Assembly: GCA_003647715.1 (NCBI GenBank)
Contig: QMNJ01000001.1
Coordinates: 1-38,671 of the forward strand
Direction of reading: 5' to 3'
DNA length: 38,671 bases
Source: Candidatus Coatesbacteria bacterium
GTDB lineage: Bacteria; RBG-13-66-14; B26-G2
Shown here: piece by piece, positions 7,327-30,287 of the stretch
Layout of the letters: each line of letters starts with the position of its first letter
Position numbering within the stretch: the stretch's first letter is position 1
Position numbers and translations under genes: made by a program
Notes under the pieces: model-generated
The model's input: the letters and a program-made list of their open reading frames with translations, nothing else
What the model was told of the DNA's origin: nothing
Database searches by the model: none

Positions 7327-7344
7327 ATCTCATACCTCCATTAT

Positions 7345-9124: not shown

Positions 9125-12100
9125 ATGAAAGACCCGGGAAGAATAACCCTGGTTGTGGCGATAGGATTGGTTTTGTGTTTATCTATTACCTTCTCATATA
9201 CAGAAGAGTGGGTAGTAGATTATGCAGGTGTTAAGGCAACTATATCCAGCCCTGCCATTGGCGATGTCAATGGTGATGGCAGGAAAGAGGTAGTAATTGG
9301 CTCAGGAACCGGTGAGCTGTATGTATTTACCGGCTCGGGGAGTATTGCCACTGGTTTCCCAATTGACCTCGGTAGTTCAGTCATTTCGTCCCCAGTTCTT
9401 GCGAATATTGACTCCGATTCAGCACTTGAGATAATCATAGGAACAACCGATGGAAAATTGTATGCCTACAATGGCAATGGCTCAATTGTGTCGGGATTCC
9501 CTGTGGTTGCGGATGATGGAATAGTAGCAACACCCGCAGTAATTGACCTTGATAAAGACGGCAGGAACGATATTATAGTCCCCGCAGTTGATGGAAAACT
9601 CTATGCCTGGTCTGGTAGCGGTGGATTGTTGCCTGGCTTCCCTGAGAAGATCTCAAAGACAGGCAACCCAAGGGTAGAATCATCGCCTGCGGTTGGTGAT
9701 GTTGATGGCGATGGTAACATAGAGATTGCATTTGGTGCTGACGATGGTCGTGTTTACTTTTGCAGGTATGCTTCAGGTGTTCTATCGGTGATATGGTCTA
9801 GAAAGACCGGTTACTATGTAAGGTCAAGCCCCGCCATCGGTGATATTGATGGAGATGGTCTTTACGAGATTGTTGTGGGCAGTGATGACTACTCTGTCTA
9901 TGCCTTTGAACTATCTGGCTCGCCAGTTAGGGGTTTTCCTGTAAGCACCGGTTATAAACTGCGATATGTCTCACCCGCTCTTGCGGATATTGATTTTGAC
10001 ACTGTAGTAGAAGTGGTGGTTGCCAGTGGTGATGGTAATGTCTATGTCATAGATGAAGATGGGACATTTCTTCCTGGTTTTCCTGTAAATCTGAACAGTA
10101 AGGTTCTTTATTCCTCTCCGGTGGTTTCGGACATAGACGGAGATGGCAAGCTGGACATAATAGTCGGGTGTGAGAACGGGAATGTCTATGCTGTCTCAGG
10201 GGATGGCACCATAATGCCTGGCTATCCATATGTTCTGGGTGGAGCAGCTTATACCTCACCTGCGGTTGGTAACATAGATGCTGATTCAAGTTTAGAGATG
10301 GTGATAGGTGGAAAGGATGGGTTTTTATACTGTGTGGATGTTGGGGGGATGGAGTCGAGAGCCAACATGCCCTGGTCGCAGTTCAAGAAGGATAATTACA
10401 GAGATTCGGTATTTGGATTTGTAGGTGGTGTAGCTGAGTTGCCATCGGTCACCGTCTCGGATATAAATGATGAGGTCTCTGGTGATGTAACCATCAATTA
10501 TGTTCTCTCGGATAAGCAGGGTGATTACTTAAGCATTCAGGCAATGTATTCAGATGACGCAGGCAGGACCTGGCATGAGGCGAGTATTATTGGAAGGACT
10601 GAAAACATAGGTCCTTCCGAATACAAGGGCAGTTTATTGTGGAAGTCAAATGATGACCTCATAGGTCCGCTGGAGAAGAAGGGCGAGGCAGACCCCGTGC
10701 TCATCGCTGAGGAGAGGAGGGAATATAGAGAGCAGAAGGATATCAAGTTCAAGATTATACCATCTGATTCAAGTGGGATAGGAACCAGTGGTGAAACAAT
10801 ATTATTTCATGTTGATAATAATGTTGCACCATCAATAACAATTGAACCCATAGAGGGCGAGAAGACCGGGGATGTGGTATTCAATTATACAATATCTGAT
10901 GAAGAGCAAGACCTGATAGGTTTACAGTTTGAGTATTCTCTTGACAGTGGTGAGACATGGAAACCCGCCACTGTTTCGGGTGCGACTACATCTATACGCC
11001 CAGCCAGGTATTCCGGACAATGCACATGGGATTCGGTGGCTGATTGTCAGGCGATTGATTCAGAGAATGTGATGTTCAGGATAATCGCATATGATAACGA
11101 CCCTGGACCTCCCGGTTTCTCAAACAAATTTCACCTTGATAACAATACACCTCCCAGGGTCATTGTTGAGGATATCCTTGAAGAGGTAGGGGGAGACATT
11201 GTAATTAATTATCAATTGCAGGACAGGGAGGAGGATAAGCTGTCACTTGACTGCTTCTATTCACTTGATAGCGGCGAGAACTGGGAGAAGGCAACGGTGG
11301 AGGGGAACATAACCGATATAACCTCTACCGATTATAAGAGTAATCTGGTGTGGAAGAGTTTGGATGACACCAGAGGTGTTGATATAAGGACGACGCAGTT
11401 CAAGATAGTTCCTATGGACAATGACGAGGGAAAGATAGATACCACCAGTAATTTCCACCTTGATAATAACAATCCGCCTGCGGTCAAGGTTGCAGAGGTG
11501 GTAGGTGAGCAGACGGGCGAGTTTCCCATTGGCTTTACAATCAGTGATGATGAGGGTGACGAGGTGTCGTTGTTATGTGAGTATTCCAAGGATAAAGGGC
11601 AGTCGTGGATAAACGCTACGGTCAGTGGACGCTTAAGCGGTATAAAACCTGCTGATTATTCCAGTGAATTGATGTGGGACTCAATAATTGACCTTCTTGG
11701 AGTGGATTCTGCAGAGATACTGTTCAGGATAACGCCTTCCGACGCAGATGTTGGTGAGCCGGGTGTAAGCGGAATGATTTATGTAGATAATAACAAACCA
11801 CCATCAATATTACTGTCAGATTTCACTGAGGAGCAGAGTGGTGATATAGATGTCTATTTCACCGTCTCTGACCTTGAGAGGGATACTGTGAGTTTATACT
11901 GTGAGTATTCACCTGATGCCGGCACAACCTGGTATGAGGCGACAGTGTCAGGTAATACTGATTTCGGGGAGGAAGGATATATTGGGCATATTACCTGGAA
12001 TTCACTTGTTGATGTTCCTGACCAATATCTTGAAAAAACCAGGTTCAGAATAACACCTTCTGATAATGATGAGGGTGAGCCGGGGACGACCAATAACTTC

Positions 12101-15100
12101 ATCGTTGATAACGACAATCCACCAACCGTTGTCGTTATGGGTGTCAGCGGTGAACAAGCAGGAGATATAACTATTCCTTATGAGATAAGCGATAAAGAAG
12201 GCGACCCGGTCTCGTTATTTGTTGAATATTCAGTTGATGGGGGTGAAAACTTCTATCCAGCAACTATAACCGGCTCTTTGGAGGGCATCACCGTAGGCAG
12301 TTACAGAGGCGCCTTTACCTGGGAATCAGAGCGTGATATTAAGGGTGTTGATTCAACTCAAGTCCTGGTGAGAGTGACCCCATCTGACCTTGATGCGGGT
12401 GAACCAGGGATATCGCCTCCCATCTGGGTGGACAATAATACGCCTCCGACAATCTCTCTTTCAGATGTTTCAGGCGAACAGTATGAGGATGTTGTCATTG
12501 ATTACTCCATAGATGATATGGAATCAGACCTGGTGAGTTTGATATGTGAGTTTAGTGAGGACGGTGGTTTGAACTGGAAACCCGCTACGGTTGAGGGCTT
12601 TATTGAGGAGATAGACAGCACCGGTTATTTAGGCTCTGTGATATGGAGAAGCGATTCTGACCTGCCTGGCACTGACCAGATGGATATTAGGTTCAGGATA
12701 ACACCAGTTGATAATGATACTGGAACCCCTGGGGAGACAGAGAACTTCCATCTTGATAATAACGAACTTCCATCTATTATAGTTGAGGATATCACAGAAG
12801 AGCAGAGTGGTAATGTCTCTGTCTCATATAAACTGGAGGATGCTGAGTATGATGCCAGTATGATAAAGGTTGAATACTCAAGTGATGGTGGTTTCACCTG
12901 GCACCCCGCAACTGTTGCCACAAAACTGGAGATTGACCCCGCCCGATATGCTGGAACAGTTATGTGGACATCGGAGGCGGATTTACCAGCGATTGACAGC
13001 CACGATGTTATGGTGAGAATTACACCATTTGATAACGACGAGGGCTTCCCCGATGAGACCGACCCATTCCACCTTGACAATAATCAACCACCTGTTGCAG
13101 TGGTTGACGATATACTGGAAGAGGTATCTGAGGATGTGAGAATCTCGTTCTCGCTTGATGATAATGATGGGGATATACTGTCAATAGATGCTGAATACTC
13201 AACCGATGGAGGAGAAACATGGAACACGGCGACTATAACGGGTGACACCGTCAATCTACGACCTCCATATTCAGGCAGTATAATATGGAACTCTACACTT
13301 GATGTTCTGGGGTTAGACAGCGACGATGTGGTATTTAAGATAATACCATCGGATAATGATGTCGGTGAGGCGAAAGTGAGCAATAGTTTCCACCTGGACA
13401 ACAACAGTTTGCCCATATCCTTCGTGGCGGATATTCATGACGAGAGCTCGGGGGATATAGATATTGAATATTCACTTCAGGATGACGAGAGAGACCCGTT
13501 GAGTATCACCTGTTTCTACTCAGATGATGGTGGCTCTACCTGGCGAGAGGCAACCGTTTCGGGAACCACCACCGGTATAACCGAGGTGGGATATGAGGGC
13601 TCTGTAATATGGCATTCTAAAGAAGACCTATTAGGTGTAGATAGAGATGACATTATGTTCAAGGTGGTTGCCAGCGATAATGATACTGGTGAGAGAGCAA
13701 GTCCAGGTCTTGTAGTGCTTGACAACAATAACACACCGAGGGTTGAGGTCAATGCACCTGAGGGTGAGAGTTCAGGAATTGTCAGGGTTCCGGTTGATAT
13801 CTCGGATGATGAGGGTGATATGATTGAACTGGTATGTGAGTTTTCCATAGATGGTGGACAGGTATATCAGCCGGCAACAGTGATAAGTCCAAAGGGTCAG
13901 ATACACACCTCGGAGTATTCAACATTCATTGAATGGGATTCAATGAATGACATAGAGGGACTTGATGTTGAGGATGTGAGATTTAAGGTTATACCATGGG
14001 ATGAGGATGAGGGAGAGGCATCTGTGTCACCACCATTCCATGTTGATAACAATATTCCGCCGATGGTTGAAGTAGCAGGTATTACCGAAGAGGTTTCAGG
14101 TGAGGTCTTTGTTGACTTCACTATTGAGGATGTTGAGAATGATAATGTAAGTATGAAGGTTGAATATTCAATTGATGGTGGAAGAACATGGGCACCTGCT
14201 ACAATAGATGGCAATATGAATAATATAACAAGTTTGATGTATGCTAATACATTTGTGTGGAGAAGCGACCAGGATGTTCCATCAGCCGATTTGACCGATG
14301 TCGCCTTACGGCTCACCCCTAGCGATAGAGATGTTGGAGAGCCGGCTATTGTCTCGCCCATTCACCTTGATAATAACATACCTCCCGAGGTCACTGTTAC
14401 TATTCCCTCTGGTGAACTCACGGGTGATGTGGATATTGGCTATACAATCAGTGACCCCGAGGGAGACACTGTATCATTGATGATGGAGTATTCAGTAGAT
14501 GGTGGAATAACCTATAACGAGGCGACCATAAGTGGACAGATAAGCGGTATTACCCCTGCGAGATACTCTGGAGTTATAAAGTGGGATTCAGGTGCGGATA
14601 TTGCCGGTGTGGATTCAGGGGATATAAGATTACGGGTGGTTGCAATGGATGCGGATGAGGGTAAACCGTTTGAGAGCGAACTAATAAGTGTGGACAATAA
14701 CATTCCACCAGATGTATCTCTTGGTAGTTATGAATTCTCACCCACCGGTGATATAATATTGCTCTATCATCTCTCTGATAATGAGGGTGACAGTTTGAGT
14801 TTGGTGTGTGAATACTCGGAGGATGGAGGTTCCACATTCAAGAATGCAACCATTATGGGGCTTACCACCGATATAACACCAAAGGAGTATGATGGTGAAC
14901 TTATATGGGCAGTGGGAACCGACCTTCCGGGGAAGGTCCTATCAGATGTGCTATTCAGGATAACTCCGTATGATACAGAAGCGGGTCAGCCGGAGACATT
15001 GGCAATAGGTAAACTTGATACCAATATTCCACCTACCTTGAATGTTATTGAACCGTTTGAGGAGGTGTCTGGTGATGTGGCAATAAGTTACTCAATTTAT

Positions 15101-15658
15101 GACCCGGAAGAGGATACAGTGGATTTGAAGGTTGAATATTCGGTGGATGGTGGGATGACATTTAAGGAAGCGACTATAAGGTCTGGTAGCACGGGGATTA
15201 GTTCGTCTGGATATCTGGGCAAGTTTGTATGGGATACAAGGGCAGACCTTGATAATAAGGAATTTAATGTCGTTTTAAGGGTTACAGCAAGCGATATAAA
15301 AGAAGGCGAGGAGATAATAACGCCTTCATTTCCTGTTGATAATAACAGACCACCGAAGATATCAATAAAGAGTTATGCATTGAGCGAAGATAAGGAGACG
15401 GTATCTATTGAATTCACCATTCTGGATGATGAAAGGGACAAGGCGAGAATTAAGTGTCAGTTCAGCGAGGATGGGGGGGTCACATGGAACGATGCTACAG
15501 TTGAGGGAATGACCACCGACCTTGTTCCGGATGGATTATATAAGCTTATATGGAAGAAGTCAGAAGACATCCCAACCATTCTTGAGGGGGCGAGAATCAA
15601 GTTTAAGATAATTCCATTTGATTATGATGAGGGAACATCAAGTGAATTAGAGTTATAA
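9125..15658 (+). CDS. Giant (2177 aa) predicted cell-surface/adhesin-like protein: N-terminal signal/anchor, 8 FG-GAP-like propeller blades, 16 tandem Asp-box modules
   Basis: A single uninterrupted ORF. The hydrophobic N-terminus is MKDPGRITLVVAIGLVLCLSITF. The internal repeat structure is listed separately below. No paralogue or known gene name recognised. Confidence 0.9.
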   Translation: MKDPGRITLVVAIGLVLCLSITFSYTEEWVVDYAGVKATISSPAIGDVNGDGRKEVVIGSGTGELYVFTGSGSIATGFPIDLGSSVISSPVLANIDSDSALEIIIGTTDGKLYAYNGNGSIVSGFPVVADDGIVATPAVIDLDKDGRNDIIVPAVDGKLYAWSGSGGLLPGFPEKISKTGNPRVESSPAVGDVDGDGNIEIAFGADDGRVYFCRYASGVLSVIWSRKTGYYVRSSPAIGDIDGDGLYEIVVGSDDYSVYAFELSGSPVRGFPVSTGYKLRYVSPALADIDFDTVVEVVVASGDGNVYVIDEDGTFLPGFPVNLNSKVLYSSPVVSDIDGDGKLDIIVGCENGNVYAVSGDGTIMPGYPYVLGGAAYTSPAVGNIDADSSLEMVIGGKDGFLYCVDVGGMESRANMPWSQFKKDNYRDSVFGFVGGVAELPSVTVSDINDEVSGDVTINYVLSDKQGDYLSIQAMYSDDAGRTWHEASIIGRTENIGPSEYKGSLLWKSNDDLIGPLEKKGEADPVLIAEERREYREQKDIKFKIIPSDSSGIGTSGETILFHVDNNVAPSITIEPIEGEKTGDVVFNYTISDEEQDLIGLQFEYSLDSGETWKPATVSGATTSIRPARYSGQCTWDSVADCQAIDSENVMFRIIAYDNDPGPPGFSNKFHLDNNTPPRVIVEDILEEVGGDIVINYQLQDREEDKLSLDCFYSLDSGENWEKATVEGNITDITSTDYKSNLVWKSLDDTRGVDIRTTQFKIVPMDNDEGKIDTTSNFHLDNNNPPAVKVAEVVGEQTGEFPIGFTISDDEGDEVSLLCEYSKDKGQSWINATVSGRLSGIKPADYSSELMWDSIIDLLGVDSAEILFRITPSDADVGEPGVSGMIYVDNNKPPSILLSDFTEEQSGDIDVYFTVSDLERDTVSLYCEYSPDAGTTWYEATVSGNTDFGEEGYIGHITWNSLVDVPDQYLEKTRFRITPSDNDEGEPGTTNNFIVDNDNPPTVVVMGVSGEQAGDITIPYEISDKEGDPVSLFVEYSVDGGENFYPATITGSLEGITVGSYRGAFTWESERDIKGVDSTQVLVRVTPSDLDAGEPGISPPIWVDNNTPPTISLSDVSGEQYEDVVIDYSIDDMESDLVSLICEFSEDGGLNWKPATVEGFIEEIDSTGYLGSVIWRSDSDLPGTDQMDIRFRITPVDNDTGTPGETENFHLDNNELPSIIVEDITEEQSGNVSVSYKLEDAEYDASMIKVEYSSDGGFTWHPATVATKLEIDPARYAGTVMWTSEADLPAIDSHDVMVRITPFDNDEGFPDETDPFHLDNNQPPVAVVDDILEEVSEDVRISFSLDDNDGDILSIDAEYSTDGGETWNTATITGDTVNLRPPYSGSIIWNSTLDVLGLDSDDVVFKIIPSDNDVGEAKVSNSFHLDNNSLPISFVADIHDESSGDIDIEYSLQDDERDPLSITCFYSDDGGSTWREATVSGTTTGITEVGYEGSVIWHSKEDLLGVDRDDIMFKVVASDNDTGERASPGLVVLDNNNTPRVEVNAPEGESSGIVRVPVDISDDEGDMIELVCEFSIDGGQVYQPATVISPKGQIHTSEYSTFIEWDSMNDIEGLDVEDVRFKVIPWDEDEGEASVSPPFHVDNNIPPMVEVAGITEEVSGEVFVDFTIEDVENDNVSMKVEYSIDGGRTWAPATIDGNMNNITSLMYANTFVWRSDQDVPSADLTDVALRLTPSDRDVGEPAIVSPIHLDNNIPPEVTVTIPSGELTGDVDIGYTISDPEGDTVSLMMEYSVDGGITYNEATISGQISGITPARYSGVIKWDSGADIAGVDSGDIRLRVVAMDADEGKPFESELISVDNNIPPDVSLGSYEFSPTGDIILLYHLSDNEGDSLSLVCEYSEDGGSTFKNATIMGLTTDITPKEYDGELIWAVGTDLPGKVLSDVLFRITPYDTEAGQPETLAIGKLDTNIPPTLNVIEPFEEVSGDVAISYSIYDPEEDTVDLKVEYSVDGGMTFKEATIRSGSTGISSSGYLGKFVWDTRADLDNKEFNVVLRVTASDIKEGEEIITPSFPVDNNRPPKISIKSYALSEDKETVSIEFTILDDERDKARIKCQFSEDGGVTWNDATVEGMTTDLVPDGLYKLIWKKSEDIPTILEGARIKFKIIPFDYDEGTSSELEL
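9245..10342 (+). repeat. Eight FG-GAP/VCBS-like beta-propeller blade repeats (coding, aa 41-406 of the giant protein)
   Basis: Eight copies at roughly 47-50 aa spacing of the pattern SSPA(I/V)GD(I/V)(D/N)GDG..E(I/V)(I/V)(I/V)G..DG.(L/V)Y(A/V)..(G)..G...GFP. Examples: SSPAIGDVNGDGRKEVVIGSGTGELYVF, SSPAVGDVDGDGNIEIAFGADDGRVYF, SSPVVSDIDGDGKLDIIVGCENGNVYAV. Confidence 0.8.
10436..15655 (+). repeat. 16 tandem in-frame coding modules of 321/324 nt (107-108 aa). Module 1 is 129 aa with an insertion and module 16 is 103 aa.
   Basis: Module starts counted from the sequence: about 10436, then 10823, 11147, 11471, 11795, 12116, 12440, 12764, 13085, 13406, 13730, 14054, 14378, 14702, 15026 and 15347. 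Consensus: xPPxvxVxdixgEqsGDvxIxYxlsDxEgDxvSLxcEYSxDGGxTWxxATvxGxxxxIxxxxYxGxxxWxSxxDlxGvDsxdvxFRItPsDnDxGxPgxsxxFhlDNN. The copies are diverged at the nucleotide level. Confidence 0.9.
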
Positions 15659-15668
15659 AGGATTCTAT

Positions 15669-16826
15669 ATGGCTGAGGAAAAGAAACTGTATCTGAGAGT
15701 AAAAGGTGTTGAGCACGGACCCTTCACTGTGGAAGAGGTAAAGACCTGGATTGAGGGTGGGAAGTTCAAGCCAACCGACTATATAAGAATGGAGGGGATG
15801 AAGCACTGGGTGATGGCTAAGAACCTGGTTCACCTCAAGGAATATTTTGATGCCAAGAAGGAGGAGGATAGAAAGGGAGCATTTGCTTCATGGCTGGGAC
15901 AGGTTAGAGAAGGTAAGCCACCTATTGTGTTGACTCCCACTGGTGTAACGGAGGAGCATACAAGGATTGCAGAGGCAAGGAAGCAACTTGAAGAGGATGC
16001 GAAGCGACTTGAAGAGAGAGAAGCGGAGTTAAGGGAGCAGATAGAGAGGGAGTTAACCAAGAAGCAGGAGGAGGAGTTTGAGAGATTGCGTAAGGAGAGA
16101 GAGCGTCTTGAGGAACATCGGATGGAGTTAGAAGAAGCCGAGATAGAGATAAAACAGATGGAGAAGACGGTGAGGAGGAGAAGGAGAATACCCTTGATAA
16201 TAGCAGGGGCTGTTATAGTTGCAGTTATTGCGGTCAGCACTCCAATTGTTATTAATTACTACAAGAGCACGAAGGAGTTGCAGGAGGCAATCAATAGAAT
16301 AGACATAATTGACAATGAGATTAAGAACCTGATGGCTAAATTAGAAGATGCAGAGACAACGATGGAGAGAGAAGCAATAATGGAGAAGATAGAGGAGTTG
16401 AAGAAGGAGAGGGAGGAATTGGTCAAAGAGGTTGAGAAGAAAGGCGGAGGGGAACCAATTGAAAATATTGAGACCACCCTCGGTAGTGTCAGTATTACAG
16501 GTCCGTTAAGCATTATCGGTCCAGGGTCTGATGACCCATCAAGGAGCTCTTCTACGGTGGATTCCATCATCAGAGGTAGAATGGGTGCAATCAATAGTGT
16601 TTACAACCGAGAATTAAGGAGCAATCCATCGCTAGAGGGAAAGGTAGTAGTATCGTTTACTGTATCCTCTGATGGGACGGTTACCCGAGCTAATGTAATA
16701 TCCTCCACACTCAGCAACTCCAAACTTGAGAATGCAATTGTCTCTAATATTATGCTCGCTAGATTCCCAAGCACCAGCAGTGGTGATATTACGGTTACTT
16801 ATCCGTTTACCTTTGAAACAAAATAA
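15669..16826 (+). CDS. GYF_2 domain / coiled-coil / single TM / AgmX-PglI-type (TonB_C-like) C-terminal domain protein (GltJ-like architecture)
   Basis: N-terminus GPFTVEEVKTWIEGGKFKPTDYIRMEGMKHWVMAKNL has the GYF_2 pattern. An E/K/R-rich coiled coil follows, then RRRRR and the TM IPLIIAGAVIVAVIAVSTPIVINYY (aa 174-197). The C-terminus GRMGAINSVYNRELRSNPSLEGKVVVSFTVSSDGTVTRANVISSTLSNSKLENAIVSNIMLARFPSTSSGDITVTYPFTF fits the AgmX/PglI / TonB_C pattern. AAGGA SD present. The start lies 10 nt after the giant gene stop. Confidence 0.7.
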   Translation: MAEEKKLYLRVKGVEHGPFTVEEVKTWIEGGKFKPTDYIRMEGMKHWVMAKNLVHLKEYFDAKKEEDRKGAFASWLGQVREGKPPIVLTPTGVTEEHTRIAEARKQLEEDAKRLEEREAELREQIERELTKKQEEEFERLRKERERLEEHRMELEEAEIEIKQMEKTVRRRRRIPLIIAGAVIVAVIAVSTPIVINYYKSTKELQEAINRIDIIDNEIKNLMAKLEDAETTMEREAIMEKIEELKKEREELVKEVEKKGGGEPIENIETTLGSVSITGPLSIIGPGSDDPSRSSSTVDSIIRGRMGAINSVYNRELRSNPSLEGKVVVSFTVSSDGTVTRANVISSTLSNSKLENAIVSNIMLARFPSTSSGDITVTYPFTFETK

Positions 16827-16839: not shown

Positions 16840-17970
16840 TTACCTTACAAGGTTTAATTTCTCTTTTACAAATTGCATTATCTCTTCGGGGTCTATATCC
16901 TCCCAACATATCATCCTAACGCAGTTCTCAAGGTATCCATCTCTATAACAGGGAGCACATTTTACACGGGGGCTGATAATAATTGAATTATCGTTTTTAT
17001 ATGGTCCATATCTAACTGGATTAGTCGGTCCAAAGATTACAATGGTGGGTGTCTTGAACGCAGACGAAATATGGAGGGGGAGGGAGTCATTAGTTATCAA
17101 TAGGCGAGAGCACTTTATTACTGCCGATACCTCTGGGATGGTAGTTTTACCAGTAATGTCCGTGATATTTGAAGATAGAGAGGCAAGTATTCTAGCCCTT
17201 TTTCTATCACTTTTGCTACCAATGATTAAAATTGGAATACTTAATGAACAAAGTTTCTGAACGAGTGCATTCCATTTGTTAATTGGCATTAATTTATTAG
17301 GCATCTTTGTCTTTGGGTTGTCGCCACCACCAGGTGCTATGACTATGTATTTCTCTGAGATGCCCGCATCCTTTAATTGCTTTTCTACTTTATTGGTCAC
17401 TTTCTCTGTGAGGAATATCTCAAGCCCTTTATCCTCAGGTTTACCACCGAGTGAGAGAACCACATTGAGGTATTCATCTGCCTGATGTATTGTCTCATCA
17501 TATTCAGTTGAGTAGTTCAGAAGTGCTCCCTCACCCCTGCGGTTTATTCCTGCCAGGATACCAGAGCAGATAATTCTAAATATCAGCGCGAAGGCAAATG
17601 AGTGATGAAATAGAATACAGAGGTCGTAGTCCTGTTTTCTTATGTCAAGCATTAGTTGCATTATTTTAATTGGGTTGAGAGAGATAAATATAGATTCATC
17701 CACTGTCAATATTCTGTTAATGTTAGGATTGGTAGCAATGATTGGTGATGACCTAATCCCTGTCAGGTAGTTAATCTCTGCATTGGGGAATAATCTTCTC
17801 AGGGTTCTCAGGGCGGGTGTGGTAAGAAGGACCTCACCAGTAGCCCATATTTTGACCACGAGTATCTTTTTAACCTTCTGAGGTCTTTTAGTTCTATTCT
17901 TAAAAGGACTTATGAGAGGAGATATTGCTCTACCGGCAAGTGAACTCAGATTTTCAATCATGAACGGCAT
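16840..17970 (-). CDS. Glycosyltransferase family 9 (heptosyltransferase-like)
   Basis: KILVVKIWATGEVLLTTPALRTLRRLFPNAEINYLT (GT9 N-terminal motif) and LITNDSLPLHISSAFKTPTIVIFGPTNP (GT9 C-terminal motif). Confidence 0.85.
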   Translation of the reverse strand: MPFMIENLSSLAGRAISPLISPFKNRTKRPQKVKKILVVKIWATGEVLLTTPALRTLRRLFPNAEINYLTGIRSSPIIATNPNINRILTVDESIFISLNPIKIMQLMLDIRKQDYDLCILFHHSFAFALIFRIICSGILAGINRRGEGALLNYSTEYDETIHQADEYLNVVLSLGGKPEDKGLEIFLTEKVTNKVEKQLKDAGISEKYIVIAPGGGDNPKTKMPNKLMPINKWNALVQKLCSLSIPILIIGSKSDRKRARILASLSSNITDITGKTTIPEVSAVIKCSRLLITNDSLPLHISSAFKTPTIVIFGPTNPVRYGPYKNDNSIIISPRVKCAPCYRDGYLENCVRMICWEDIDPEEIMQFVKEKLNLVR

Positions 17971-19363
17971 ATATCTCTACCTCCCCTATCTCTTTGAATA
18001 AATAGTAATCATCTTTGATTAAGACCTTTATCTTGTCAGGACTATCAATACCCAGGATGACCCATTGTGGTTTCTGATTCAGTATTATCTGGCACTGTTC
18101 TTCGTGTGAGGGCAGGTGATATTTAGTTCTCTCCTCCTCAGTCAGCAGGTCTGATATTCTTCTGGAGAACTCGCCCAGAAGTAGGTCAGGGTGAGGTATG
18201 CCACTGGTGACATATCCGCTCCACCAGGTTGCGACCACATCATCTTCGTCAACATATTCATCTGTGAAGTCCTGGACTTTCACTATTTCGCTGATTCCAA
18301 CCATAGGTTTAGCATAGTAATTCATAGCAACCCTCCCCAAAGGTCTAACAAGCCCTGTTATGATGAAAAAGAGCATTACAGTTGTTATCAAAATAGATTT
18401 CTTTCGTGATGCTGTTAAATGGTGGATTAAATGGTTGGATGAGATGGCGGTAAATGGAACCAATAATACCAGATACTGGAGTGAAGCAGATATGGGTATA
18501 ATACTGATAATAAGGATGACCAGGACATATAGAGATGATATGCGCTCTATCATTTCAGTTCTTCTGCGGAATAATCTAAATATAGCGATTACTGCGAGTA
18601 TGACTATTATCGCTGAGTTGGGGTCTAATGCCATTTCTTTCACTATGCTAAATCTCGTCATCTGCGACTTATAACCACTGAGTGCGGTGGTGTGAATGCC
18701 GATTACATTGAACAGTAGATAATCGGTGTATTTGAGTGTATAAAATATGATAGGTATTATGCCCGCTATTAATCCGGAGAGAAATGGATAGATATTCCAA
18801 CGATTATTAGTTCTATTGAAGCAGTATATAGGGATGATTATTATGGGTATTAGGATGATTCGTGAAGATATAACAAGACCTGTGAAGAATCCGGACAGAA
18901 GCGCAAATATCAATCGTTTGTTATTGATAGAAAGTATCAAAAACATTATTGAGATAATCAGTAGTAGTATGGTCAGTGAATAGACCTTGACAGGTGATAA
19001 CCAGTTGATTGTTAGATATGAGAAACTGAATATATAGAGTGGTAAACTGCTTGCTTCATTGGTTGTTCTGATTAGCAGGTATAAGATGGTAAGTGAGGTT
19101 ATTGCAAGGGCAACACTGAGGAATCTTCCGGCAATCAGAGATGTCCCGGTAACCTTGAAGAGCAGGGCATATAATAGTGTAGTTAGGGGTGTGTGTGGCA
19201 ATGGAATGTCTCTGTATAATTCATACCCTCTGTTCAAGAGATGTGCTGAGCCAATCCAGAATCCCTCGTCCCTATCCACCGGTCTGTTATATATCTGAGT
19301 TATTAATATAATAGAGAATATGATTAAGATGACTGCAAATGTTCTATTAAGGTTTTTTAACAT
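17954..19363 (-). CDS. Polytopic GT-C glycosyltransferase, PMT_2/ArnT (GT39/GT83)-like
   Basis: 469 aa with about 10 or more hydrophobic helices. The first loop DRDEGFWIGSAHLLNRGYELYRDIPLPHTPL resembles the acidic DE loop of ArnT/PMT enzymes. There is a soluble C-terminal domain. Its end overlaps the GT9 start by 17 nt. Confidence 0.65.
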   Translation of the reverse strand: MLKNLNRTFAVILIIFSIILITQIYNRPVDRDEGFWIGSAHLLNRGYELYRDIPLPHTPLTTLLYALLFKVTGTSLIAGRFLSVALAITSLTILYLLIRTTNEASSLPLYIFSFSYLTINWLSPVKVYSLTILLLIISIMFLILSINNKRLIFALLSGFFTGLVISSRIILIPIIIIPIYCFNRTNNRWNIYPFLSGLIAGIIPIIFYTLKYTDYLLFNVIGIHTTALSGYKSQMTRFSIVKEMALDPNSAIIVILAVIAIFRLFRRRTEMIERISSLYVLVILIISIIPISASLQYLVLLVPFTAISSNHLIHHLTASRKKSILITTVMLFFIITGLVRPLGRVAMNYYAKPMVGISEIVKVQDFTDEYVDEDDVVATWWSGYVTSGIPHPDLLLGEFSRRISDLLTEEERTKYHLPSHEEQCQIILNQKPQWVILGIDSPDKIKVLIKDDYYLFKEIGEVEIYAVHD

Positions 19364-19378
19364 AACCGATTTTTTCTG

Positions 19379-20593
19379 TTATTTCTTACTTCTTTGCCTT
19401 TTATGGTAATTATAGACATTGGTCAGGATTTTCTCTAATGCTTCAGCGTGTTTACCCCATGACTGCTCTTCTTGAATGTATCGGGTAGCATTATCAGATA
19501 GTTTCTGTCTTAATGATGAGTTGTCTCTTATCATCTTGATTGCCTGTGCATATTCATCCGGTTTATCGGGATTGACCAGAATTCCTCTCTCACCATAGCC
19601 GACTATCTTCTCCAGGGTGTCATATTTACTCACTACCACGGGGAGTCCACTTGCCAGGTATTCCATCAATTTTGCCGGTGCCCAGAAGAACCCAAATTCC
19701 TCCAGTGGTTTGTAATAGGAGGCATTGAACGGTGCAAGCCCCACATCGCTTATTGCCATAAGGTAGGGAATTGTTTTGTAGGGCTGGGGACCAAGATAGA
19801 GACAGTATCTCCCGAGACCATTAGAGTGGATGTATTCCATCAATCTTGCCTCTTCGCCCCCTCCACCCACGAGCAAGAAAAGTGCATCTGGAATAATCCT
19901 AGAGGTGTGATAGATAATATCAGGAAGGTCATATATTCCCTGCCATTCTCTGAATGAGCCGACGAATAAGATGAGAAACCTGTTATTTAGATTGTATTTT
20001 TCTATTATTTCTCTGGCGGTGTTAGTATTTCTTAGGTTCTTGTTAAATCTTGAGTGGTCTGCACCCCAGAAAAGTAGGTAGGTTCTGTCTCGTGCGAAGT
20101 CAGGAACTACAGTAGATATTGTGGTAATATTTGCACTTGACTGTCTAAACTGAAAGTTGACCCAGGATTTGAGGGGTGCTTTAATGATGGGCGATTTTAT
20201 CTTCCAGCGGTGTATAATCTCATCAACATGTGGACTGTTCACTTCCAGAACCAGAGGTGTTCTCTTCAGAAATGAGTATATTGCACCAAGACCCCCTGCA
20301 GTTATATATCTCTCCATAACTATATCAAAGTTCTTGTTAAGAAGTGATGGGAGATAGGGGATGGATATCAGTGGGAGTTTTATGCTAATGACCTTCTGCC
20401 AGACCCTGATGACCTTGACGCCATCAACATTTTCAAGGGCACGCTGGTCGTTGCGCCTTAAAGAGAACAGCGTTACCTGGTGTCCAAGTCGGACCAGATT
20501 CCTGGCGACCTCAAAGGTATGAACCGCACCAGCGTGGCTTGCGGGAACATCCTCACATGAGAAGTATAGTATTTTCAATGAGTGGTTATTCAT
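19379..20593 (-). CDS. Glycosyltransferase family 4 (GT-B, group 1)
   Basis: N-terminus HAGAVHTFEVARNLVRLGHQVTLFS and C-terminal E..FG.....KLMEYLASGLPVVVS (EX7E-type region). ATGA start/stop overlap with the upstream gene at 20590-20593. Confidence 0.85.
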   Translation of the reverse strand: MNNHSLKILYFSCEDVPASHAGAVHTFEVARNLVRLGHQVTLFSLRRNDQRALENVDGVKVIRVWQKVISIKLPLISIPYLPSLLNKNFDIVMERYITAGGLGAIYSFLKRTPLVLEVNSPHVDEIIHRWKIKSPIIKAPLKSWVNFQFRQSSANITTISTVVPDFARDRTYLLFWGADHSRFNKNLRNTNTAREIIEKYNLNNRFLILFVGSFREWQGIYDLPDIIYHTSRIIPDALFLLVGGGGEEARLMEYIHSNGLGRYCLYLGPQPYKTIPYLMAISDVGLAPFNASYYKPLEEFGFFWAPAKLMEYLASGLPVVVSKYDTLEKIVGYGERGILVNPDKPDEYAQAIKMIRDNSSLRQKLSDNATRYIQEEQSWGKHAEALEKILTNVYNYHKRQRSKK

Positions 20594-22230
20594 TCCGTTA
20601 TATATATCAATACCTCTGGACCCCTGGTTATTTTACCATCAGGTGAGAAATTTTTTATGAGTTTGTATTTCTCTTTGAGTATTCGGTGGTATTCATTCTC
20701 ACAGGGATATGTCTCCACGCCATAGTCAAGGCATTGGTCAATATAGAATTCTTTATCCCCAAAGACAGAGGTAATAACATATTTGATGTTATTACCTTCA
20801 ATAAATGATACAACATCTTTTATCGCCATGGATACCAGATAAAGGTTGTATTTCCTTCTGTTTTTTATCTCTTTTGACACGCTTATTAATATTCTAAACC
20901 TGATATTGCCCCGCCCCCAGATTGATAGTCGCTCTGCTGATTCAGGGTTCGGAATGAGTTGTGGTGATTCCACATCCGGTATCACCCGGTCAATGAGGAT
21001 GGCAGAATTTTCAGTAAGGTTCTCTTCTATCCACTGTCGTGCCATCTCTCTGGTGTCTGTCATCGCTGATTTTCTAACAGCAATGAAAGTGGGTATTGCA
21101 ATAAATAACCCAATAAAAGATATGAATAAAATTCCAATGTATTTATTCTTCCTCTTTATTTTGGAGAATAAATATTGAAGACCATTTCCTCCGATAATAG
21201 CTATGGGTGGGAGGGAAACAATAAGGTAGTGAGGTGGCACATACCTTCCAACTATGATTGCTATATTAAGTAATACTAATAGTATCAGAGGAATGAGTTT
21301 TCTTTCTCTGGATGCCATCATAAAGCCGAGAAGGGCAAATGGTATTATCACCGGGGTAATCAATCTTGGTGAGATGTTCACTGCAAACCAGCGGAGTGAG
21401 CTCATCAACTGGAATCCCACCTCTCTTGCTCTATCTATCTGTGTTTTTATATCCCCAATAGCGCTGTGATGGTCAATCACAATGAATGGTGAGAATATAA
21501 GGAACGATAGTGTAGTAATTACAACAAACATCAATGATAACCTGATATGAGATTTTACATCTGTTTTCTGTATGAAAATATATGCTATTACTGCGGGTAT
21601 TATCAGGAGGGCGTTGTATTTTGTTGATATAGCAGTGCCTGTGAAGATTGCTGATAGGATGATATTTTGTTTTGACAGATTATGGTTTCGGTAGATAAAG
21701 AATAATGCCATTGAGGTGAAGAGCAGAAGATATGCCTCTGGCTTTGCAAGGTGTGAGTAGCGTATAAACAGCGGTGATGTTATGAGTATTACCGAGGCGA
21801 ATATAGCAGTAGTGCGATTTGCTATCCTTGAAGCCATCAGGTATATAAAGGGTATAGAAAGAGTAGAGAGTATTATGCTGAAAAGACGGGATGTAATATA
21901 TATAACGGTTGGATTCTCAAGGTAGAGGAGCATATAATCGTGTGTAGTTATCACAACATTCAAAACTTTTAGAACCACGAATAGAATTCCAAGAACTATG
22001 AAGAGCATATATACAGGTAGTTGTGCTGGCCAGGTGAAAAGGTGTGGATTGAAATCGCCGGTTCCACAGTGGAGGGCTCGCTCCACAATCTGGAATTCAT
22101 CGCTCACCGTTAAACTAGGAAGATTACCTTTCAAACCAGGTAATGTGAGCGCAAGAGATGAGATGATAAGAATCAGTATAATATATCTGTCTCTCAAGGT
22201 TCTCTCCTCATTCTGAGAACTGCATTGCAT
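20590..22230 (-). CDS. Polytopic GT-C glycosyltransferase, PMT_2/ArnT-like (second copy)
   Basis: 546 aa with many TM helices, an early acidic loop (TVSDEFQIVERALH) and a soluble C-terminal domain. An alternative TTG start at 22197 would form a TTGA overlap with the YfhO stop. Confidence 0.6.
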   Translation of the reverse strand: MQCSSQNEERTLRDRYIILILIISSLALTLPGLKGNLPSLTVSDEFQIVERALHCGTGDFNPHLFTWPAQLPVYMLFIVLGILFVVLKVLNVVITTHDYMLLYLENPTVIYITSRLFSIILSTLSIPFIYLMASRIANRTTAIFASVILITSPLFIRYSHLAKPEAYLLLFTSMALFFIYRNHNLSKQNIILSAIFTGTAISTKYNALLIIPAVIAYIFIQKTDVKSHIRLSLMFVVITTLSFLIFSPFIVIDHHSAIGDIKTQIDRAREVGFQLMSSLRWFAVNISPRLITPVIIPFALLGFMMASRERKLIPLILLVLLNIAIIVGRYVPPHYLIVSLPPIAIIGGNGLQYLFSKIKRKNKYIGILFISFIGLFIAIPTFIAVRKSAMTDTREMARQWIEENLTENSAILIDRVIPDVESPQLIPNPESAERLSIWGRGNIRFRILISVSKEIKNRRKYNLYLVSMAIKDVVSFIEGNNIKYVITSVFGDKEFYIDQCLDYGVETYPCENEYHRILKEKYKLIKNFSPDGKITRGPEVLIYITE

Positions 22231-27123: not shown

Positions 27124-27180
27124 AATATTCGTTCTCGGTAAGGTGTTAATATGATAACAAATTGGCACAGGTTTTTGAAC

Positions 27181-27189
27181 ATTATAGCA
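27181..27189 (-). promoter_or_regulatory. Extended -10 element (TGCTATAAT) for the minus-strand ECF/glycosyltransferase operon
   Basis: The reverse complement of 27181-27189 reads TGCTATAAT, about 58 nt upstream of the ATG at 27123. No convincing -35 element. Confidence 0.3.
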
Positions 27190-27190
27190 G

Positions 27191-27220
27191 TTGACATACA
27201 ATGGATGTAGAAAGTATAAT
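27191..27220 (+). promoter_or_regulatory. Near-consensus sigma-70 promoter of tRNA-Lys
   Basis: TTGACA (27191-27196), an 18-nt spacer, then TATAAT (27215-27220). The tRNA 5' end lies 11 nt downstream of the -10. Confidence 0.7.
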
Positions 27221-27230: not shown

Positions 27231-27303
27231 GAGCCGCTAGCTCAGTAGGTAGAGCAACGGCCTTTTAAGCCGTGGGTCGAAGGTTCGATTCCTTCGCGGC
27301 TCA
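27231..27303 (+). tRNA. tRNA-Lys (anticodon UUU)
   Basis: A perfect 73-nt cloverleaf folded by hand: acceptor GAGCCGC/GCGGCTC, D arm GCTC-AGTAGGTA-GAGC, anticodon arm ACGGC-CTTTTAA-GCCGT, variable loop GGGTC, T arm GAAGG-TTCGATT-CCTTC, discriminator A. CCA is not encoded. A T7 run follows. Confidence 0.96.
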
Positions 27304-27340
27304 TTTTTTTATTTTACATTCATTTGCTTTATTTTATCCT

Positions 27341-30281: not shown

Positions 30282-30287
30282 GTGTAT

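What the first reader, a model, noticed from the sequence alone, without database searches (positions are those of the whole stretch)
15669..16826. GltJ/AgmX-like bitopic protein (cytoplasmic GYF domain, TM, periplasmic TonB_C-like domain) encoded 10 nt after the giant gene
Seen: the 385-aa ORF starts 10 nt after the giant gene stop and has its own AAGGA SD. It has a GYF_2-like N-terminus (GPFTVEEVKTWIEGGKFKPTDYIRMEGMKHWVMAKNL) and long E/K/R coiled coils on both sides of a single TM. RRRRR precedes IPLIIAGAVIVAVIAVSTPIVINYY, so the N-terminus is predicted inside. The C-terminus matches the AgmX/PglI C-terminal (TonB_C-related) pattern and ends in VTYPFTF. Established: in Myxococcus xanthus the gliding (Agl-Glt) complex contains GltJ (AgmX) and GltG (PglI), which are bitopic inner-membrane proteins with TonB_C-like periplasmic domains. 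The GltJ cytoplasmic part contains a GYF domain involved in the MglA-controlled assembly switch (my recollection of published work). Inference: this protein could couple a cytoplasmic signal or motor to the envelope or to the adjacent giant adhesin. I see no zinc-ribbon domain in this protein.
Basis: partly seen in the sequence, partly recalled or inferred. Interest (0 to 1): 0.8.

Follow-up and report, generated by a model that had tools for sequence, protein, structure and literature searches.

The report
GYF–TonB-like envelope connector beside giant gene
This gene from an uncultured Coatesbacteria bacterium encodes a single-pass membrane protein with a GYF adaptor domain inside the cell and a TonB-like docking domain in the periplasm; it looks like a stripped-down relative of the Myxococcus gliding protein GltJ that probably ties the giant secreted protein encoded just upstream to partners inside the cell, but it is not a true GltJ.

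Summary
ORF 15669..16826 (+) encodes 385 aa with this layout: GYF_2, a conserved linker, a charged helical rod, one TM helix (N-terminus inside), a periplasmic coiled coil, a β-hairpin, and an AgmX/PglI-type TonB_C domain. It contains no cysteine, so it has no zinc ribbon.

It belongs to a small family of about 9 clusters at 50% identity. The family is found in Candidatus Coatesbacteria and in MAGs labelled Zixibacteriota. In at least five diverged Coatesbacteria lineages the 2,177-aa FG-GAP/Asp-box gene lies directly upstream, although the flanking genes differ. That link is not universal.

It is not a GltJ or GltG orthologue. The NCBIfam equivalog scores are 29.5/450 and 65/650. It has helical rods where GltJ has disordered linkers, and no glt or agl genes lie nearby.

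Related Coatesbacteria genomes, one of them on the same 1.85-Mb contig as an orthologous pair, carry a separate operon: TolQ/ExbB, ExbD, ExbD, a GltG-like protein and a 2×GYF GltJ-like protein. The C-terminal domains of those two proteins are 43–48% identical to this one. The finding is therefore a lineage-specific paralogue of a stator-linked GYF–TonB-like protein.

The window also encodes an MglC homologue.

My best reading is a GltJ-style passive envelope connector. It is a new variant of a known kind and of moderate interest.

The parts
15669..16826 (+). Gene for the 385-aa bitopic GYF / TM / TonB_C-like protein (stop codon included)
   Evidence: ORF list and translation. Fourteen full-length homologues. 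The exact sequence is in NCBI as a hypothetical protein of Candidatus Coatesbacteria MAGs.
15657..15661 (+). AAGGA Shine-Dalgarno-like motif, overlapping the giant gene's stop codon and 7 nt before the ATG
   Evidence: Read directly from the sequence. No terminator-like site lies between the genes.
15687..15851 (+). Cytoplasmic GYF domain (aa 7-61)
   Evidence: Pfam GYF_2, 33.2 bits against a gathering score of 25.8. PDB profile hit to the GltJ GYF 7z3c, E=0.002. Foldseek hits to 3fma and 7z3c.
15855..15962 (+). Family-specific conserved linker (aa 63-98): helix GAFxSWLxxV followed by GxPPxxLTPxG
   Evidence: Invariant A71, F72, W75, V79, G82 and L88 in alignment A1. Predicted helix 65-80 with pLDDT above 80. 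An HMM of this segment finds only the core family.
15948..16187 (+). Cytoplasmic charged helical rod (aa 94-173, 62% D/E/K/R), ending in RRRRR
   Evidence: Composition. Predicted helices 90-173. Only about one conserved hydrophobic residue per heptad. It is 54 aa longer in the 436-aa clade.
16188..16262 (+). Single transmembrane helix (aa 174-198), IPLIIAGAVIVAVIAVSTPIVINYY, with no His and no SxxxH motif
   Evidence: Hydropathy and flanking charges. Conserved P175 and P192. Contrast with the TM helices of the stator-operon paralogues.
16263..16445 (+). Periplasmic helical rod (aa 199-259); residues 204-225 carry a clean a/d heptad seam
   Evidence: Its length is nearly constant across the family.
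16476..16544 (+). Conserved pre-CTD beta-hairpin (aa 270-292), motif ETxLGSVxIxGPLSIxGxGxxDPxRS
   Evidence: Alignment A1. Strands 272-276 and 281-283 in the model. The motif is shared with the stator-operon paralogues.
16545..16823 (+). Periplasmic AgmX/PglI-type TonB_C domain (aa 293-385), single copy, no Cys
   Evidence: NF033768, 87 bits against a cut-off of 40. Pfam TonB_C, 27.4 against 24.6. PDB TonB 6sly, E=1.7e-5. Foldseek hits to TonB and FusB CTDs.
9125..15658 (+). Upstream giant gene (2,177 aa): Sec signal peptide, FG-GAP beta-propeller, then 16 tandem ~108-aa Asp-box Ig-like repeats. It is the probable operon partner.
   Evidence: Pfam. Sequence and repeat spacing. Co-conserved adjacency in L001/L019, L017, L018, L020, L008, L010 and L021.
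27272..29029 (+). Phosphodiesterase-like (alkaline-phosphatase superfamily) gene. Its homologue is the gene directly downstream of the GYF/TonB_C gene in other Coatesbacteria loci.
   Evidence: tblastn gives 26-28% identity over about 570 aa to the downstream gene in L009, L010, L021 and L022. Pfam Phosphodiest on the L009 copy.

Best explanation
The gene encodes a GltJ-style envelope connector, not a motor-bound TonB.

Shown:
- It is a bitopic inner-membrane protein with its N-terminus inside the cell.
- The cytoplasmic part is a GYF adaptor domain, a family-specific conserved helix/PP motif, and a charged helical rod of about 12 nm.
- The periplasmic part is a helical rod of about 9 nm whose membrane-proximal half is a heptad coiled coil, then a beta-hairpin and one AgmX/PglI-type TonB-like C-terminal domain.
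- It is translated from the same transcription unit as the 2,177-aa secreted FG-GAP/Asp-box repeat protein.

Inferred:
- The protein oligomerises through the periplasmic coiled coil.
- Its C-terminal domain docks by beta-strand augmentation, as TonB, TolA and GltG/GltJ CTDs do, onto a periplasmic partner. In Coatesbacteria that partner is the giant protein or something bound to it. In the 436-aa clade it is the small outer-membrane barrel or the periplasmic TPR protein encoded next to it.
- Its GYF domain binds a proline-rich cytoplasmic ligand. The extracytoplasmic giant protein is thereby tied to a cytoplasmic landmark or regulator.
- It arose as a paralogue of the 2xGYF-TM-Gly-rich-CTD protein encoded in the TolQ/ExbB-ExbD-ExbD operon of the same lineages. 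It kept both end domains but swapped the flexible spacers and the stator-type TM for rigid rods.
For: - Domains and topology.
- Operon: a 10-nt gap, an SD-like motif and no terminator.
- Co-conservation: the giant gene lies 5-92 nt upstream in the window/L017, L001/L002/L019, L018, L020, L008, L010 and L021. The identities of the two proteins fall in parallel (giant/GYF protein: 72/64, 70/63, 57/52, 49/49 %). The outer flanks differ: rpoN cluster, HIT/DUF3467, or an HD-domain protein plus a transporter upstream; a glycosyltransferase block or a phosphodiesterase-like gene downstream.
- In the other clade the gene directly upstream is again an exported envelope protein: an OMP_b-brl barrel of 188-202 aa, next to a divergently transcribed TPR protein of 773-795 aa that has a signal peptide.
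- Paralogy: the CTD including the pre-CTD hairpin (aa 272-384) is 43-48% identical to the CTDs of the two proteins in the stator operon. It is 34-35% identical to Bdellovibrio AgmX/PglI-type and FHA-type proteins.
- One 1.85-Mb contig carries both loci.
- Passive-connector precedent: in the published Agl-Glt model the GltJ TM helix is not predicted to bind AglR, while its CTD binds periplasmic GltD and its GYF binds the proline-rich region of AglZ (PMC11761067; PMC11135422).
- The periplasmic rod has a clean a/d seam at 204-225 and its length is conserved. The cytoplasmic rod varies by 54 aa.
Against: - No physical interaction was tested or modelled; the partner assignment rests on gene order.
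- Adjacency to the giant gene is broken in several cases. L009 and L022 have T9SS-cargo genes upstream. Giant homologues in L042/L043 and L044 are not followed by this gene. P0035 in L040 has a PMT_2 gene upstream.
- The route of the giant protein beyond the periplasm is unknown. It has no T9SS C-terminal domain, and the Cys near its signal peptide is not conserved.
- The closest paralogues sit in a stator operon, which argues that this protein could also be energised.
- The GYF ligand is unidentified.
Confidence: 0.5

Rival explanations
1. It is a PMF-energised TonB/GltG-type transducer. On this view its TM helix plugs into the TolQ/ExbB-ExbD-ExbD stator encoded elsewhere in the genome. The helical rod then transmits force to the CTD, which pulls on the giant protein. 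This would make it an extra output arm of an Agl/Glt-like motor, for example for gliding or surface transport.
For: - The TonB_C superfamily domain is present.
- The nearest paralogues (43-48% CTD identity) are the two proteins encoded directly after MotA_ExbB-ExbD-ExbD in L041, L045 and L046.
- The same contig carries both loci.
- An MglC homologue is in the window.
Against: - The TM helix has no His and no SxxxH motif, it has conserved prolines, and it is preceded by RRRRR. The stator-operon paralogues have acidic N-flanks, and some carry SFLLH-type motifs.
- Rigid helical rods replace the Gly- or Pro-rich flexible spacers.
- No MotA/ExbB or ExbD gene lies within 8-10 kb in any of about 25 loci of this family.
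Confidence: 0.27
2. It is a general envelope or division scaffold, unrelated to the giant protein. On this view the adjacency is inherited synteny within one phylum. The protein would tether the inner membrane to the peptidoglycan or outer-membrane layer (TolA/CpoB-like) or act at the septum. JGI names one family member FtsB.
For: - Adjacency is absent in several members, and contexts vary: OM barrel, PMT_2, T9SS-cargo genes.
- Envelope-glycan genes (GT9, PMT_2, GT4, YfhO) lie next to it in the window and in L001, and a PMT_2 gene lies next to it in L040.
- The JGI name 'cell division protein FtsB' is given to a member of the P0034 cluster.
Against: - The pair survives rearrangement of both flanks down to 49% identity, with gaps of 5-92 nt.
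- The FtsB name is most likely a coiled-coil artefact; no FtsB or DivIC family appears.
- No tol-pal or division genes lie nearby.
Confidence: 0.15
3. It is a transmembrane signalling receptor, an anti-sigma-like or FecR-like relay. On this view the CTD senses an envelope ligand, and the GYF domain releases or recruits a cytoplasmic regulator.
For: - Attia et al. propose that bacterial N-terminal-GYF membrane proteins signal between compartments (PMC11135422).
- An ECF sigma / zf-HC2 anti-sigma pair lies 3-4 genes away in the 436-aa clade.
Against: - No sigma or anti-sigma domain is present in the protein.
- The ECF pair is on the opposite strand and is absent from all Coatesbacteria loci.
Confidence: 0.06

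Closest known systems
GltJ (AgmX, MXAN_4862) of the Myxococcus xanthus Agl-Glt gliding machinery
   Same: - Bitopic inner-membrane protein with the N-terminus in the cytoplasm.
- Cytoplasmic GYF domain: profile hit to PDB 7z3c (E=0.002) and a fold match.
- Periplasmic AgmX/PglI-type TonB-like CTD.
- Plausibly the same logic of linking a cytosolic platform to a periplasmic or outer-membrane partner without binding the stator (PMC11761067).
   Different: - 385 aa against 674 aa.
- No zinc ribbon (0 Cys) and no ZnR-GYF linker, so it lacks the published MglA-GTP/MglB switch.
- Helical rods in place of long disordered segments.
- The GltJ equivalog model scores 29.5 bits against a cut-off of 450, on the CTD only.
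- No glt/agl neighbours.
- Found in Coatesbacteria and Zixibacteria-labelled MAGs, not in Myxococcota.
The uncharacterised 2xGYF-TM-Gly-rich-CTD proteins (P0070, P0039, P0339) encoded after MotA/ExbB-ExbD-ExbD and a GltG-like gene, in Coatesbacteria, Zixibacteria-labelled and related MAGs
   Same: - Same end domains.
- The CTD including the pre-CTD hairpin is 35-43% identical (P0070 43%), and the GYF domain is 27-40% identical.
- Same lineages, and even the same contig.
- No Cys pair in the CTD.
   Different: - Those proteins have two GYF domains, a TonB-like TM helix, and Gly-rich flexible spacers of about 150 aa. They sit in a stator operon.
- The finding has one GYF domain, a unique conserved linker, rigid rods and an Arg-flanked TM helix, and it sits next to the giant gene.
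TonB (ExbB-ExbD-TonB energy transduction)
   Same: [quoted passage not shown]
- Single N-proximal TM anchor and a periplasm-spanning spacer.
   Different: - A cytoplasmic extension of 173 aa.
- No SHLS/His TM signature.
- No Pro-rich rod (0 Pro in aa 199-259).
- No adjacent exbBD genes.
- No TonB-dependent receptor nearby.
TolA
   Same: [quoted passage not shown]
- Weak Foldseek hits to TolA domain III.
   Different: - No tol-pal context.
- The NCBIfam TolA model gives only E=0.17.
- The periplasmic helix is much shorter.
- A cytoplasmic GYF module is present.
The class of bacterial N-terminal-GYF membrane proteins described by Attia et al. 2024
   Same: N-terminal cytoplasmic GYF domain followed by a membrane-associated extracytoplasmic module (PMC11135422).
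   Different: It belongs to the roughly 56% of such proteins that lack an adjacent ZnR. The specific combination with an AgmX/PglI CTD, helical rods and a giant FG-GAP neighbour is not mentioned in the parts of that paper read here.

Membership tests
GltJ (NF033761 equivalog) | Full-length match to the equivalog model above its cut-off of 450 bits | tested here: not met
   29.5 bits. The match covers only aa 293-382 against model positions 582-671.
GltJ | N-terminal zinc-ribbon domain and a flexible linker of about 95 aa before the GYF domain (the MglA-GTP/MglB switch) | tested here: not met
   The protein has no Cys at all, and the GYF domain starts at residue 7. The definition of the switch is from PMC11135422.
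GltJ | Cytoplasmic GYF domain | tested here: met
   Pfam GYF_2, 33.2 bits against 25.8. Profile hit to 7z3c, E=0.002. Foldseek hit to 7z3c, TM-score 0.57.
GltJ | Periplasmic AgmX/PglI-type TonB-like CTD after a single TM helix | tested here: met
   NF033768, 87 bits against 40. TM helix at about 175-197 with the N-terminus inside.
GltJ | Genomic or functional association with glt/agl genes (GltD/E/G/I, AglRQS, AglZ) | tested here: not met
   None in the 38.7-kb window. None within 8-10 kb in the related loci of this family. The rest of the genome could not be read.
GltJ | The GYF domain binds a proline-rich partner (AglZ PRS), and MglA controls assembly | not testable with these tools
   No binding assay or complex prediction was available. 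The only indirect sign of an Mgl module is an MglC homologue at 30282..30644.
GltG (NF033760 equivalog) | Full-length match above 650 bits, with cytoplasmic FHA domains | tested here: not met
   65 bits on the CTD only. No FHA hit.
AgmX/PglI C-terminal domain family (NF033768) | Domain model match above the cut-off of 40 bits over the whole model | tested here: met
   87 bits, model positions 2-92 of 92. NCBI gives this name to the 65%-identical homologue P0002. This protein lacks the Cys pair seen in the superfamily consensus.
TonB energy transducer | TonB_C domain | tested here: met
   Pfam 27.4 against 24.6; TIGR01352 36.6 against 27.1.
TonB energy transducer | TM helix with the S-x3-H (SHLS) signature that couples to ExbB/ExbD | tested here: not met
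   The TM helix is IPLIIAGAVIVAVIAVSTPIVINYY. No His or Ser is conserved in the TM across the family. The motif itself is from my own knowledge of E. coli TonB.
TonB energy transducer | Pro-rich periplasmic spacer | tested here: not met
   0 Pro in aa 199-259. That segment is predicted to be a continuous helix.
TonB energy transducer | Encoded with, or dependent on, ExbB/ExbD | tested here: inconclusive
   Not adjacent in any locus of this family. A MotA_ExbB-ExbD-ExbD operon does exist on the same contig as the L018 orthologue and in a complete Coatesbacteria genome. Dependence cannot be tested here.
GYF_2 (PF14237) bacterial N-terminal GYF membrane proteins | N-terminal GYF_2 domain followed by a TM helix and an extracytoplasmic module | tested here: met
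   The class is described in PMC11135422.

The most novel reading that the evidence does not exclude
Coatesbacteria, and the MAGs labelled Zixibacteriota, may possess an Agl-Glt-like trans-envelope machine that is independent of Myxococcota. Its parts would be:
- a TolQ-TolR-TolR stator;
- a GltG-like protein (FHA-like domain, TM helix, Gly-rich spacer, CTD);
- a GltJ-like protein (2xGYF, TM helix, Gly-rich spacer, CTD);
- an MglC/Roadblock polarity module.

On this reading, the protein in this finding is the dedicated adaptor that hooks a 2,177-aa propeller/Ig-repeat adhesin to that machine and to a cytoplasmic proline-rich platform. That would amount to a gliding or surface-conveyor apparatus in uncultured FCB-related phyla.
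Probability: 0.13. Interest if true: 0.85.

Novelty: new variant of a known kind. Interest (0 to 1): 0.5.

Why it matters
GltJ is the only GYF-plus-TonB-like protein that has been studied. In 2011 it was thought to be confined to Myxococcales and Bdellovibrionales (PMC3169522).

This work shows that the same two end domains recur in uncultured Coatesbacteria and Zixibacteria-labelled lineages in two forms. One form sits in a TolQ-TolR-TolR operon beside a GltG-like gene. The other, which is this finding, has rigid rods and sits beside a giant secreted propeller/Ig-repeat protein.

If the connector model is right, it offers a minimal version of the GltJ principle without the zinc-ribbon switch: a cytoplasmic adaptor domain joined across the membrane to a periplasmic docking domain. 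It also gives a concrete candidate for how a giant envelope protein is anchored or positioned in a phylum with no cultured member.

Together with the MglC homologue in the window, it makes the question of whether Agl-Glt-like machines exist outside Myxococcota directly testable. The tests would be complex prediction, heterologous interaction assays, and imaging of enrichment cultures.

Tried and rejected
1. Stator, Glt or MglA genes in the window. Every large ORF was scanned against Pfam, and selected ones also against NCBIfam. None was found. The only related item is an MglC-like ORF found by a PDB sequence search.

2. A T9SS C-terminal sorting domain or lipobox on the giant protein. NCBIfam and Pfam show no Por_Secre_tail, and the last 110 aa are another Asp-box repeat. 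The Cys near the signal peptide is not conserved: the L044 homologue has an ASA-type cleavage site.

3. A sigma-54 promoter upstream of the giant gene. TGGCAT-N-...GTG at about 9085 does not have the GG-N10-GC spacing. I read this by eye and dropped it.

4. Linkage of the TPR/MglC-like/Roadblock genes to the GYF gene in other genomes. tblastn found no hits within +/-8-10 kb of any homologue.

5. Whether the giant gene lies directly upstream of the T9SS-cargo array in L022. There is no match within 8 kb. L042 and L043 carry the same giant protein with differing downstream genes, possibly because the tandem cargo paralogues disturb assembly.

6. An FHA domain in the ~445-aa protein of the stator operon. 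Pfam finds none. The AF2 model (pLDDT 55.6 overall, 70-77 in the N-domain) gives only weak Foldseek FHA hits with E=0.02-0.3. This is inconclusive.

7. A Pfam scan of all 150 representatives exceeded the residue limit. It was repeated on 125.

8. Complex prediction of the CTD with the giant protein was not possible. The structure tool takes single window proteins only, and the two genes are in different frames.

9. The JGI name 'FtsB' for a family member is not supported by any family hit.
Full report
**Observation.** It starts 10 nt after the stop of the 2,177-aa ORF 9125..15658. AAGGA lies 7 nt before its ATG, and no terminator-like site lies between the genes.

The domain matches are all above their curated cut-offs:
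- Pfam GYF_2, aa 8-53, 33.2 bits (gathering score 25.8).
- Pfam TonB_C, aa 322-383, 27.4 bits (gathering score 24.6).
- NCBIfam AgmX/PglI C-terminal domain model NF033768, over its whole length, 87 bits (cut-off 40).

There is one hydrophobic segment at about aa 175-197. Seven K/R residues lie on its N-side and three on its C-side, so the N-terminus is predicted inside. The protein has no cysteine, so it cannot have a zinc ribbon.

An AlphaFold2 model built on the 14-sequence family alignment has mean pLDDT 78. It shows:
- a GYF-type fold at aa 7-61;
- a helix at 65-80;
- long helices at 90-173 and 199-259 on either side of the TM helix;
- a beta-hairpin at 272-283;
- a TonB-CTD-like helix-plus-sheet domain at 294-384.

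Foldseek against the PDB returns TonB and FusB C-terminal domains and GYF domains, including the GltJ GYF 7z3c. A profile search of PDB sequences gives TonB 6sly (E=1.7e-5) and 7z3c (E=0.002).

**The family.** The exact protein is deposited as a hypothetical protein of Candidatus Coatesbacteria MAGs. A 99%-identical member of its cluster is named a 'TonB family protein'. A word-indexed search of 5.8 billion proteins found only 14 full-length homologues at 38-99% identity. A profile search of 1.84 billion representatives found about nine full-length clusters at 50% identity. By contrast, the C-terminal domain alone has 3,897 relatives at E<=1e-10.

Named sources are Coatesbacteria, Zixibacteriota-labelled MAGs and unnamed MAGs.

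The alignment shows several conserved features:
- an invariant segment after the GYF domain, GAFxSWLxxV...GxPPxxLTPxG, which is specific to this family;
- an RRRR-IP...P...YY transmembrane segment with no conserved His or Ser;
- a periplasmic rod of nearly constant length;
- a cytoplasmic rod that is 54 aa longer in one clade.

The periplasmic rod has a clean a/d heptad seam at residues 204-225. The cytoplasmic rod has only about one conserved hydrophobic residue per seven, so it may be a weak coiled coil or a single alpha-helix.

**Gene neighbourhood.** I fetched 46 loci in all, about 40 of them carrying a member of this family.

In the Coatesbacteria-type clade (385-392 aa), the orthologue of the giant gene lies 5-92 nt upstream on the same strand in the window/L017, L001/L002/L019, L018, L020, L008, L010 and L021. 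The identities of the two proteins fall in parallel (giant/GYF protein: 72/64, 70/63, 57/52, 49/49 %).

The outer flanks differ between these loci:
- Upstream: the rpoN-hpf-ptsN-hprK cluster in the window, HIT/DUF3467 genes in L001, and an HD-domain protein plus a transporter in L010.
- Downstream: a shared 10-kb block of GT9, PMT_2, GT4, YfhO, ABC and QueT genes on the opposite strand in the window and its closer relatives (seen in full in L001/L002; L018-L020 were checked only for the GT9 gene), but a phosphodiesterase-like gene in L010 and L021. The homologue of that gene in the window sits at 27272..29029, just beyond the block.

The pair is therefore the conserved unit, which argues for a functional link.

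The link is not universal:
- In L009 and L022 (46% identity) the upstream genes are tandem repeat proteins of about 560 aa with T9SS-type C-terminal domains. No giant gene lies within 8 kb.
- Giant homologues in L042/L043 and in a Zixibacteriota-labelled MAG (L044) are followed by other genes.
- A distant member in L040 follows a PMT_2 gene.
- In the 436-aa clade the gene directly upstream is always a small OMP_b-brl barrel of 188-202 aa. A TPR protein of 773-795 aa with a signal peptide is transcribed divergently from it.
- One locus (L015) has two diverged copies of the GYF/TonB_C gene in tandem after the barrel gene.

The common theme is that the gene directly upstream usually encodes an exported envelope protein.

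**Is it GltJ?** No. The GltJ and GltG equivalog models score 29.5/450 and 65/650 bits, and the matches are confined to the C-terminal domain.

GltJ's regulatory switch consists of a zinc ribbon, a 95-residue linker that binds MglA-GTP, and a GYF domain that binds the proline-rich region of AglZ (PMC11135422). Here the GYF domain starts at residue 7, and there is no zinc ribbon and no preceding linker. GltJ's long disordered segments (PMC11761067) are replaced by helical rods. No glt or agl gene is in the window or next to any family member.

**What it is related to.** Among the 150 best representatives, 14 contain GYF domains. Besides the core family these include proteins with two GYF domains, a TM helix, a Gly-rich spacer of about 150 aa and the same CTD.

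In L041, L045 and L046 this protein is the last gene of a conserved operon: MotA/TolQ/ExbB, ExbD, ExbD, a ~445-aa protein, then the 2xGYF protein. The ~445-aa protein has this layout:
- a beta-rich cytoplasmic domain;
- a TM helix, SFLLH-type in some members;
- a Gly-rich spacer;
- an AgmX/PglI CTD.

The NCBIfam GltG model scores 108 bits on its C-terminal half. Pfam sees no FHA domain in it. A low-confidence model gives only weak Foldseek FHA hits, so its FHA nature is unresolved.

L045 lies on the same 1.85-Mb contig as L018, which carries an orthologous giant/GYF pair. L046 is from a complete Coatesbacteria genome.

The finding's CTD including the pre-CTD hairpin (aa 272-384) is 43-48% identical to the CTDs of both operon proteins. 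It is 34-35% identical to Bdellovibrio AgmX/PglI-type and FHA-type proteins. The finding is therefore best seen as a lineage-specific paralogue of a stator-linked GYF/TonB-like protein. It kept both end domains and changed the middle.

**Mechanism.** I favour a passive GltJ-style connector (confidence 0.5).

Shown: the topology, the domains, the operon with the giant gene, and the paralogy.

Inferred:
- oligomerisation through the periplasmic coiled coil;
- docking of the CTD by beta-strand augmentation to the giant protein or its partner (to the barrel or TPR protein in the other clade);
- binding of a proline-rich cytoplasmic ligand by the GYF domain.

The precedent is GltJ itself. In the published model its TM helix is not predicted to bind AglR, while its CTD binds periplasmic GltD and its N-terminus binds the cytosolic platform.

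The main rival (0.27) is a PMF-energised transducer that uses the TolQ-TolR-TolR stator encoded elsewhere. The paralogy favours this rival. Against it are the Arg-flanked TM helix without His, the rigid rods, and the constant absence of stator genes next to this family. A general envelope scaffold (0.15) and a signalling receptor (0.06) remain possible.

**Context in the window.** ORF 30282..30644 is a full-length homologue of M. xanthus MglC (PDB 7ct3, E=1.8e-15). It is followed by a Roadblock/LC7 ORF. It is preceded by a TPR protein with an acidic, proline-containing tail.

McLoon et al. reported that MglC-type orphans occur only in genomes with a group-1 MglA (PMC4719450). An Mgl-type polarity module in this organism is therefore likely, although no MglA gene is in the window. 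These genes are not linked to the GYF gene in other loci.

**Novelty and score.** N-terminal-GYF membrane proteins are a described class, and the domains are annotated in public records. The specific architecture is not covered by the papers I could search. That architecture is a single GYF domain, a unique linker, rods, an AgmX/PglI CTD, no zinc ribbon, and an operon link to a giant FG-GAP/Asp-box protein in Coatesbacteria.

I rate it a new variant of a known kind, with interest 0.5. The more novel reading is that it is the adaptor joining a giant adhesin to an Agl-Glt-like machine outside Myxococcota. I give that reading a probability of about 0.13.

Noticed in passing
window 29205..31033 (+): Three abutting genes. 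The first (29205..30281) is a TPR protein with an acidic, proline-containing C-terminal tail (EEPIPPDRF...GKPPPFEG). The second (30282..30644) is a 120-aa full-length homologue of M. xanthus MglC (PDB 7ct3, E=1.8e-15) that Pfam and NCBIfam miss. The third (30683..31033) is a 116-aa Roadblock/LC7 protein with no detectable similarity to the second. No MglA-like GTPase is in the window. The TPR tail is a speculative ligand for the GYF domain.
   Followed up: partly
L045:6842-11428, L046:6790-11395, L041:955-5773 (not in the window): A conserved five-gene operon in Coatesbacteria and related MAGs: MotA/TolQ/ExbB, ExbD, ExbD, a ~445-aa GltG-like protein (beta-rich and possibly FHA-like N-domain, TM helix, Gly-rich spacer, AgmX/PglI CTD), and a ~465-475-aa GltJ-like protein (2xGYF, TM helix, Gly-rich spacer, CTD). 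Its composition mirrors AglR-AglQ-AglS plus GltG plus GltJ of Myxococcus. In 2011 gltJ was reported only in Myxococcales and Bdellovibrionales.
   Followed up: partly
window 9125..15658 (+): The giant protein has a Sec signal peptide, an FG-GAP propeller (about aa 30-420) and 16 tandem 107-108-aa Ig-like repeats, each with an Asp-box (YSxDGGxTW) and a DNNxPP boundary. It has no T9SS C-terminal domain, although neighbouring surface proteins in related loci do. About 24 full-length homologue clusters exist, in Coatesbacteria and Zixibacteriota-labelled MAGs. How it leaves the periplasm is unknown.
   Followed up: partly
window 16840..27201 (-) and 27272..29029 (+): A 10-kb block on the opposite strand (GT9 heptosyltransferase, two PMT_2 genes, GT4/GT1, YfhO, tandem-ABC ATPase, QueT) separates the GYF gene from a phosphodiesterase-like gene. 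In L009, L010, L021 and L022 that phosphodiesterase-like gene lies directly downstream of the GYF gene. The window copy gets no Pfam hit and has VRGLGQ where L009 has the GIDGLD metal-site motif, so it may be catalytically degenerate.
   Followed up: partly
L015:1507-4586: An OM barrel gene is followed by two tandem, diverged copies (25% identity) of the GYF/TM/TonB_C gene. The second copy has Cys residues in its CTD. This pairing is reminiscent of GltG and GltJ.
   Followed up: no
L044:16660-18067: In a Zixibacteriota-labelled MAG the giant-protein homologue is followed by two paralogous cytoplasmic proteins (241 and 216 aa), each with several CxxC zinc-ribbon motifs, instead of the GYF/TonB_C gene.
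   Followed up: no
L003, L006, L012, L013, L025, L030 (436-aa clade): Conserved layout: a periplasmic TPR protein (773-795 aa, divergently transcribed), a small OM barrel, the GYF/TonB_C gene, and further downstream on the opposite strand two unknown genes plus a zf-HC2 anti-sigma / ECF sigma pair. TPR plus barrel plus TonB-like CTD loosely recalls GltD/E plus GltA/B plus GltG/J, but the TPR hits are generic.
   Followed up: partly
window 127..8685 (-): An ordinary rpoN-hpf-ptsN(EIIA-Ntr)-hprK-PTS(EIIA/EIIB-Man)-HPr-PtsI cluster. Lipoyl synthase and a dihydrolipoamide-dehydrogenase-like gene are inserted between rpoN and hpf. It is transcribed divergently from the giant gene across a 439-nt AT-rich spacer.
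   Followed up: no
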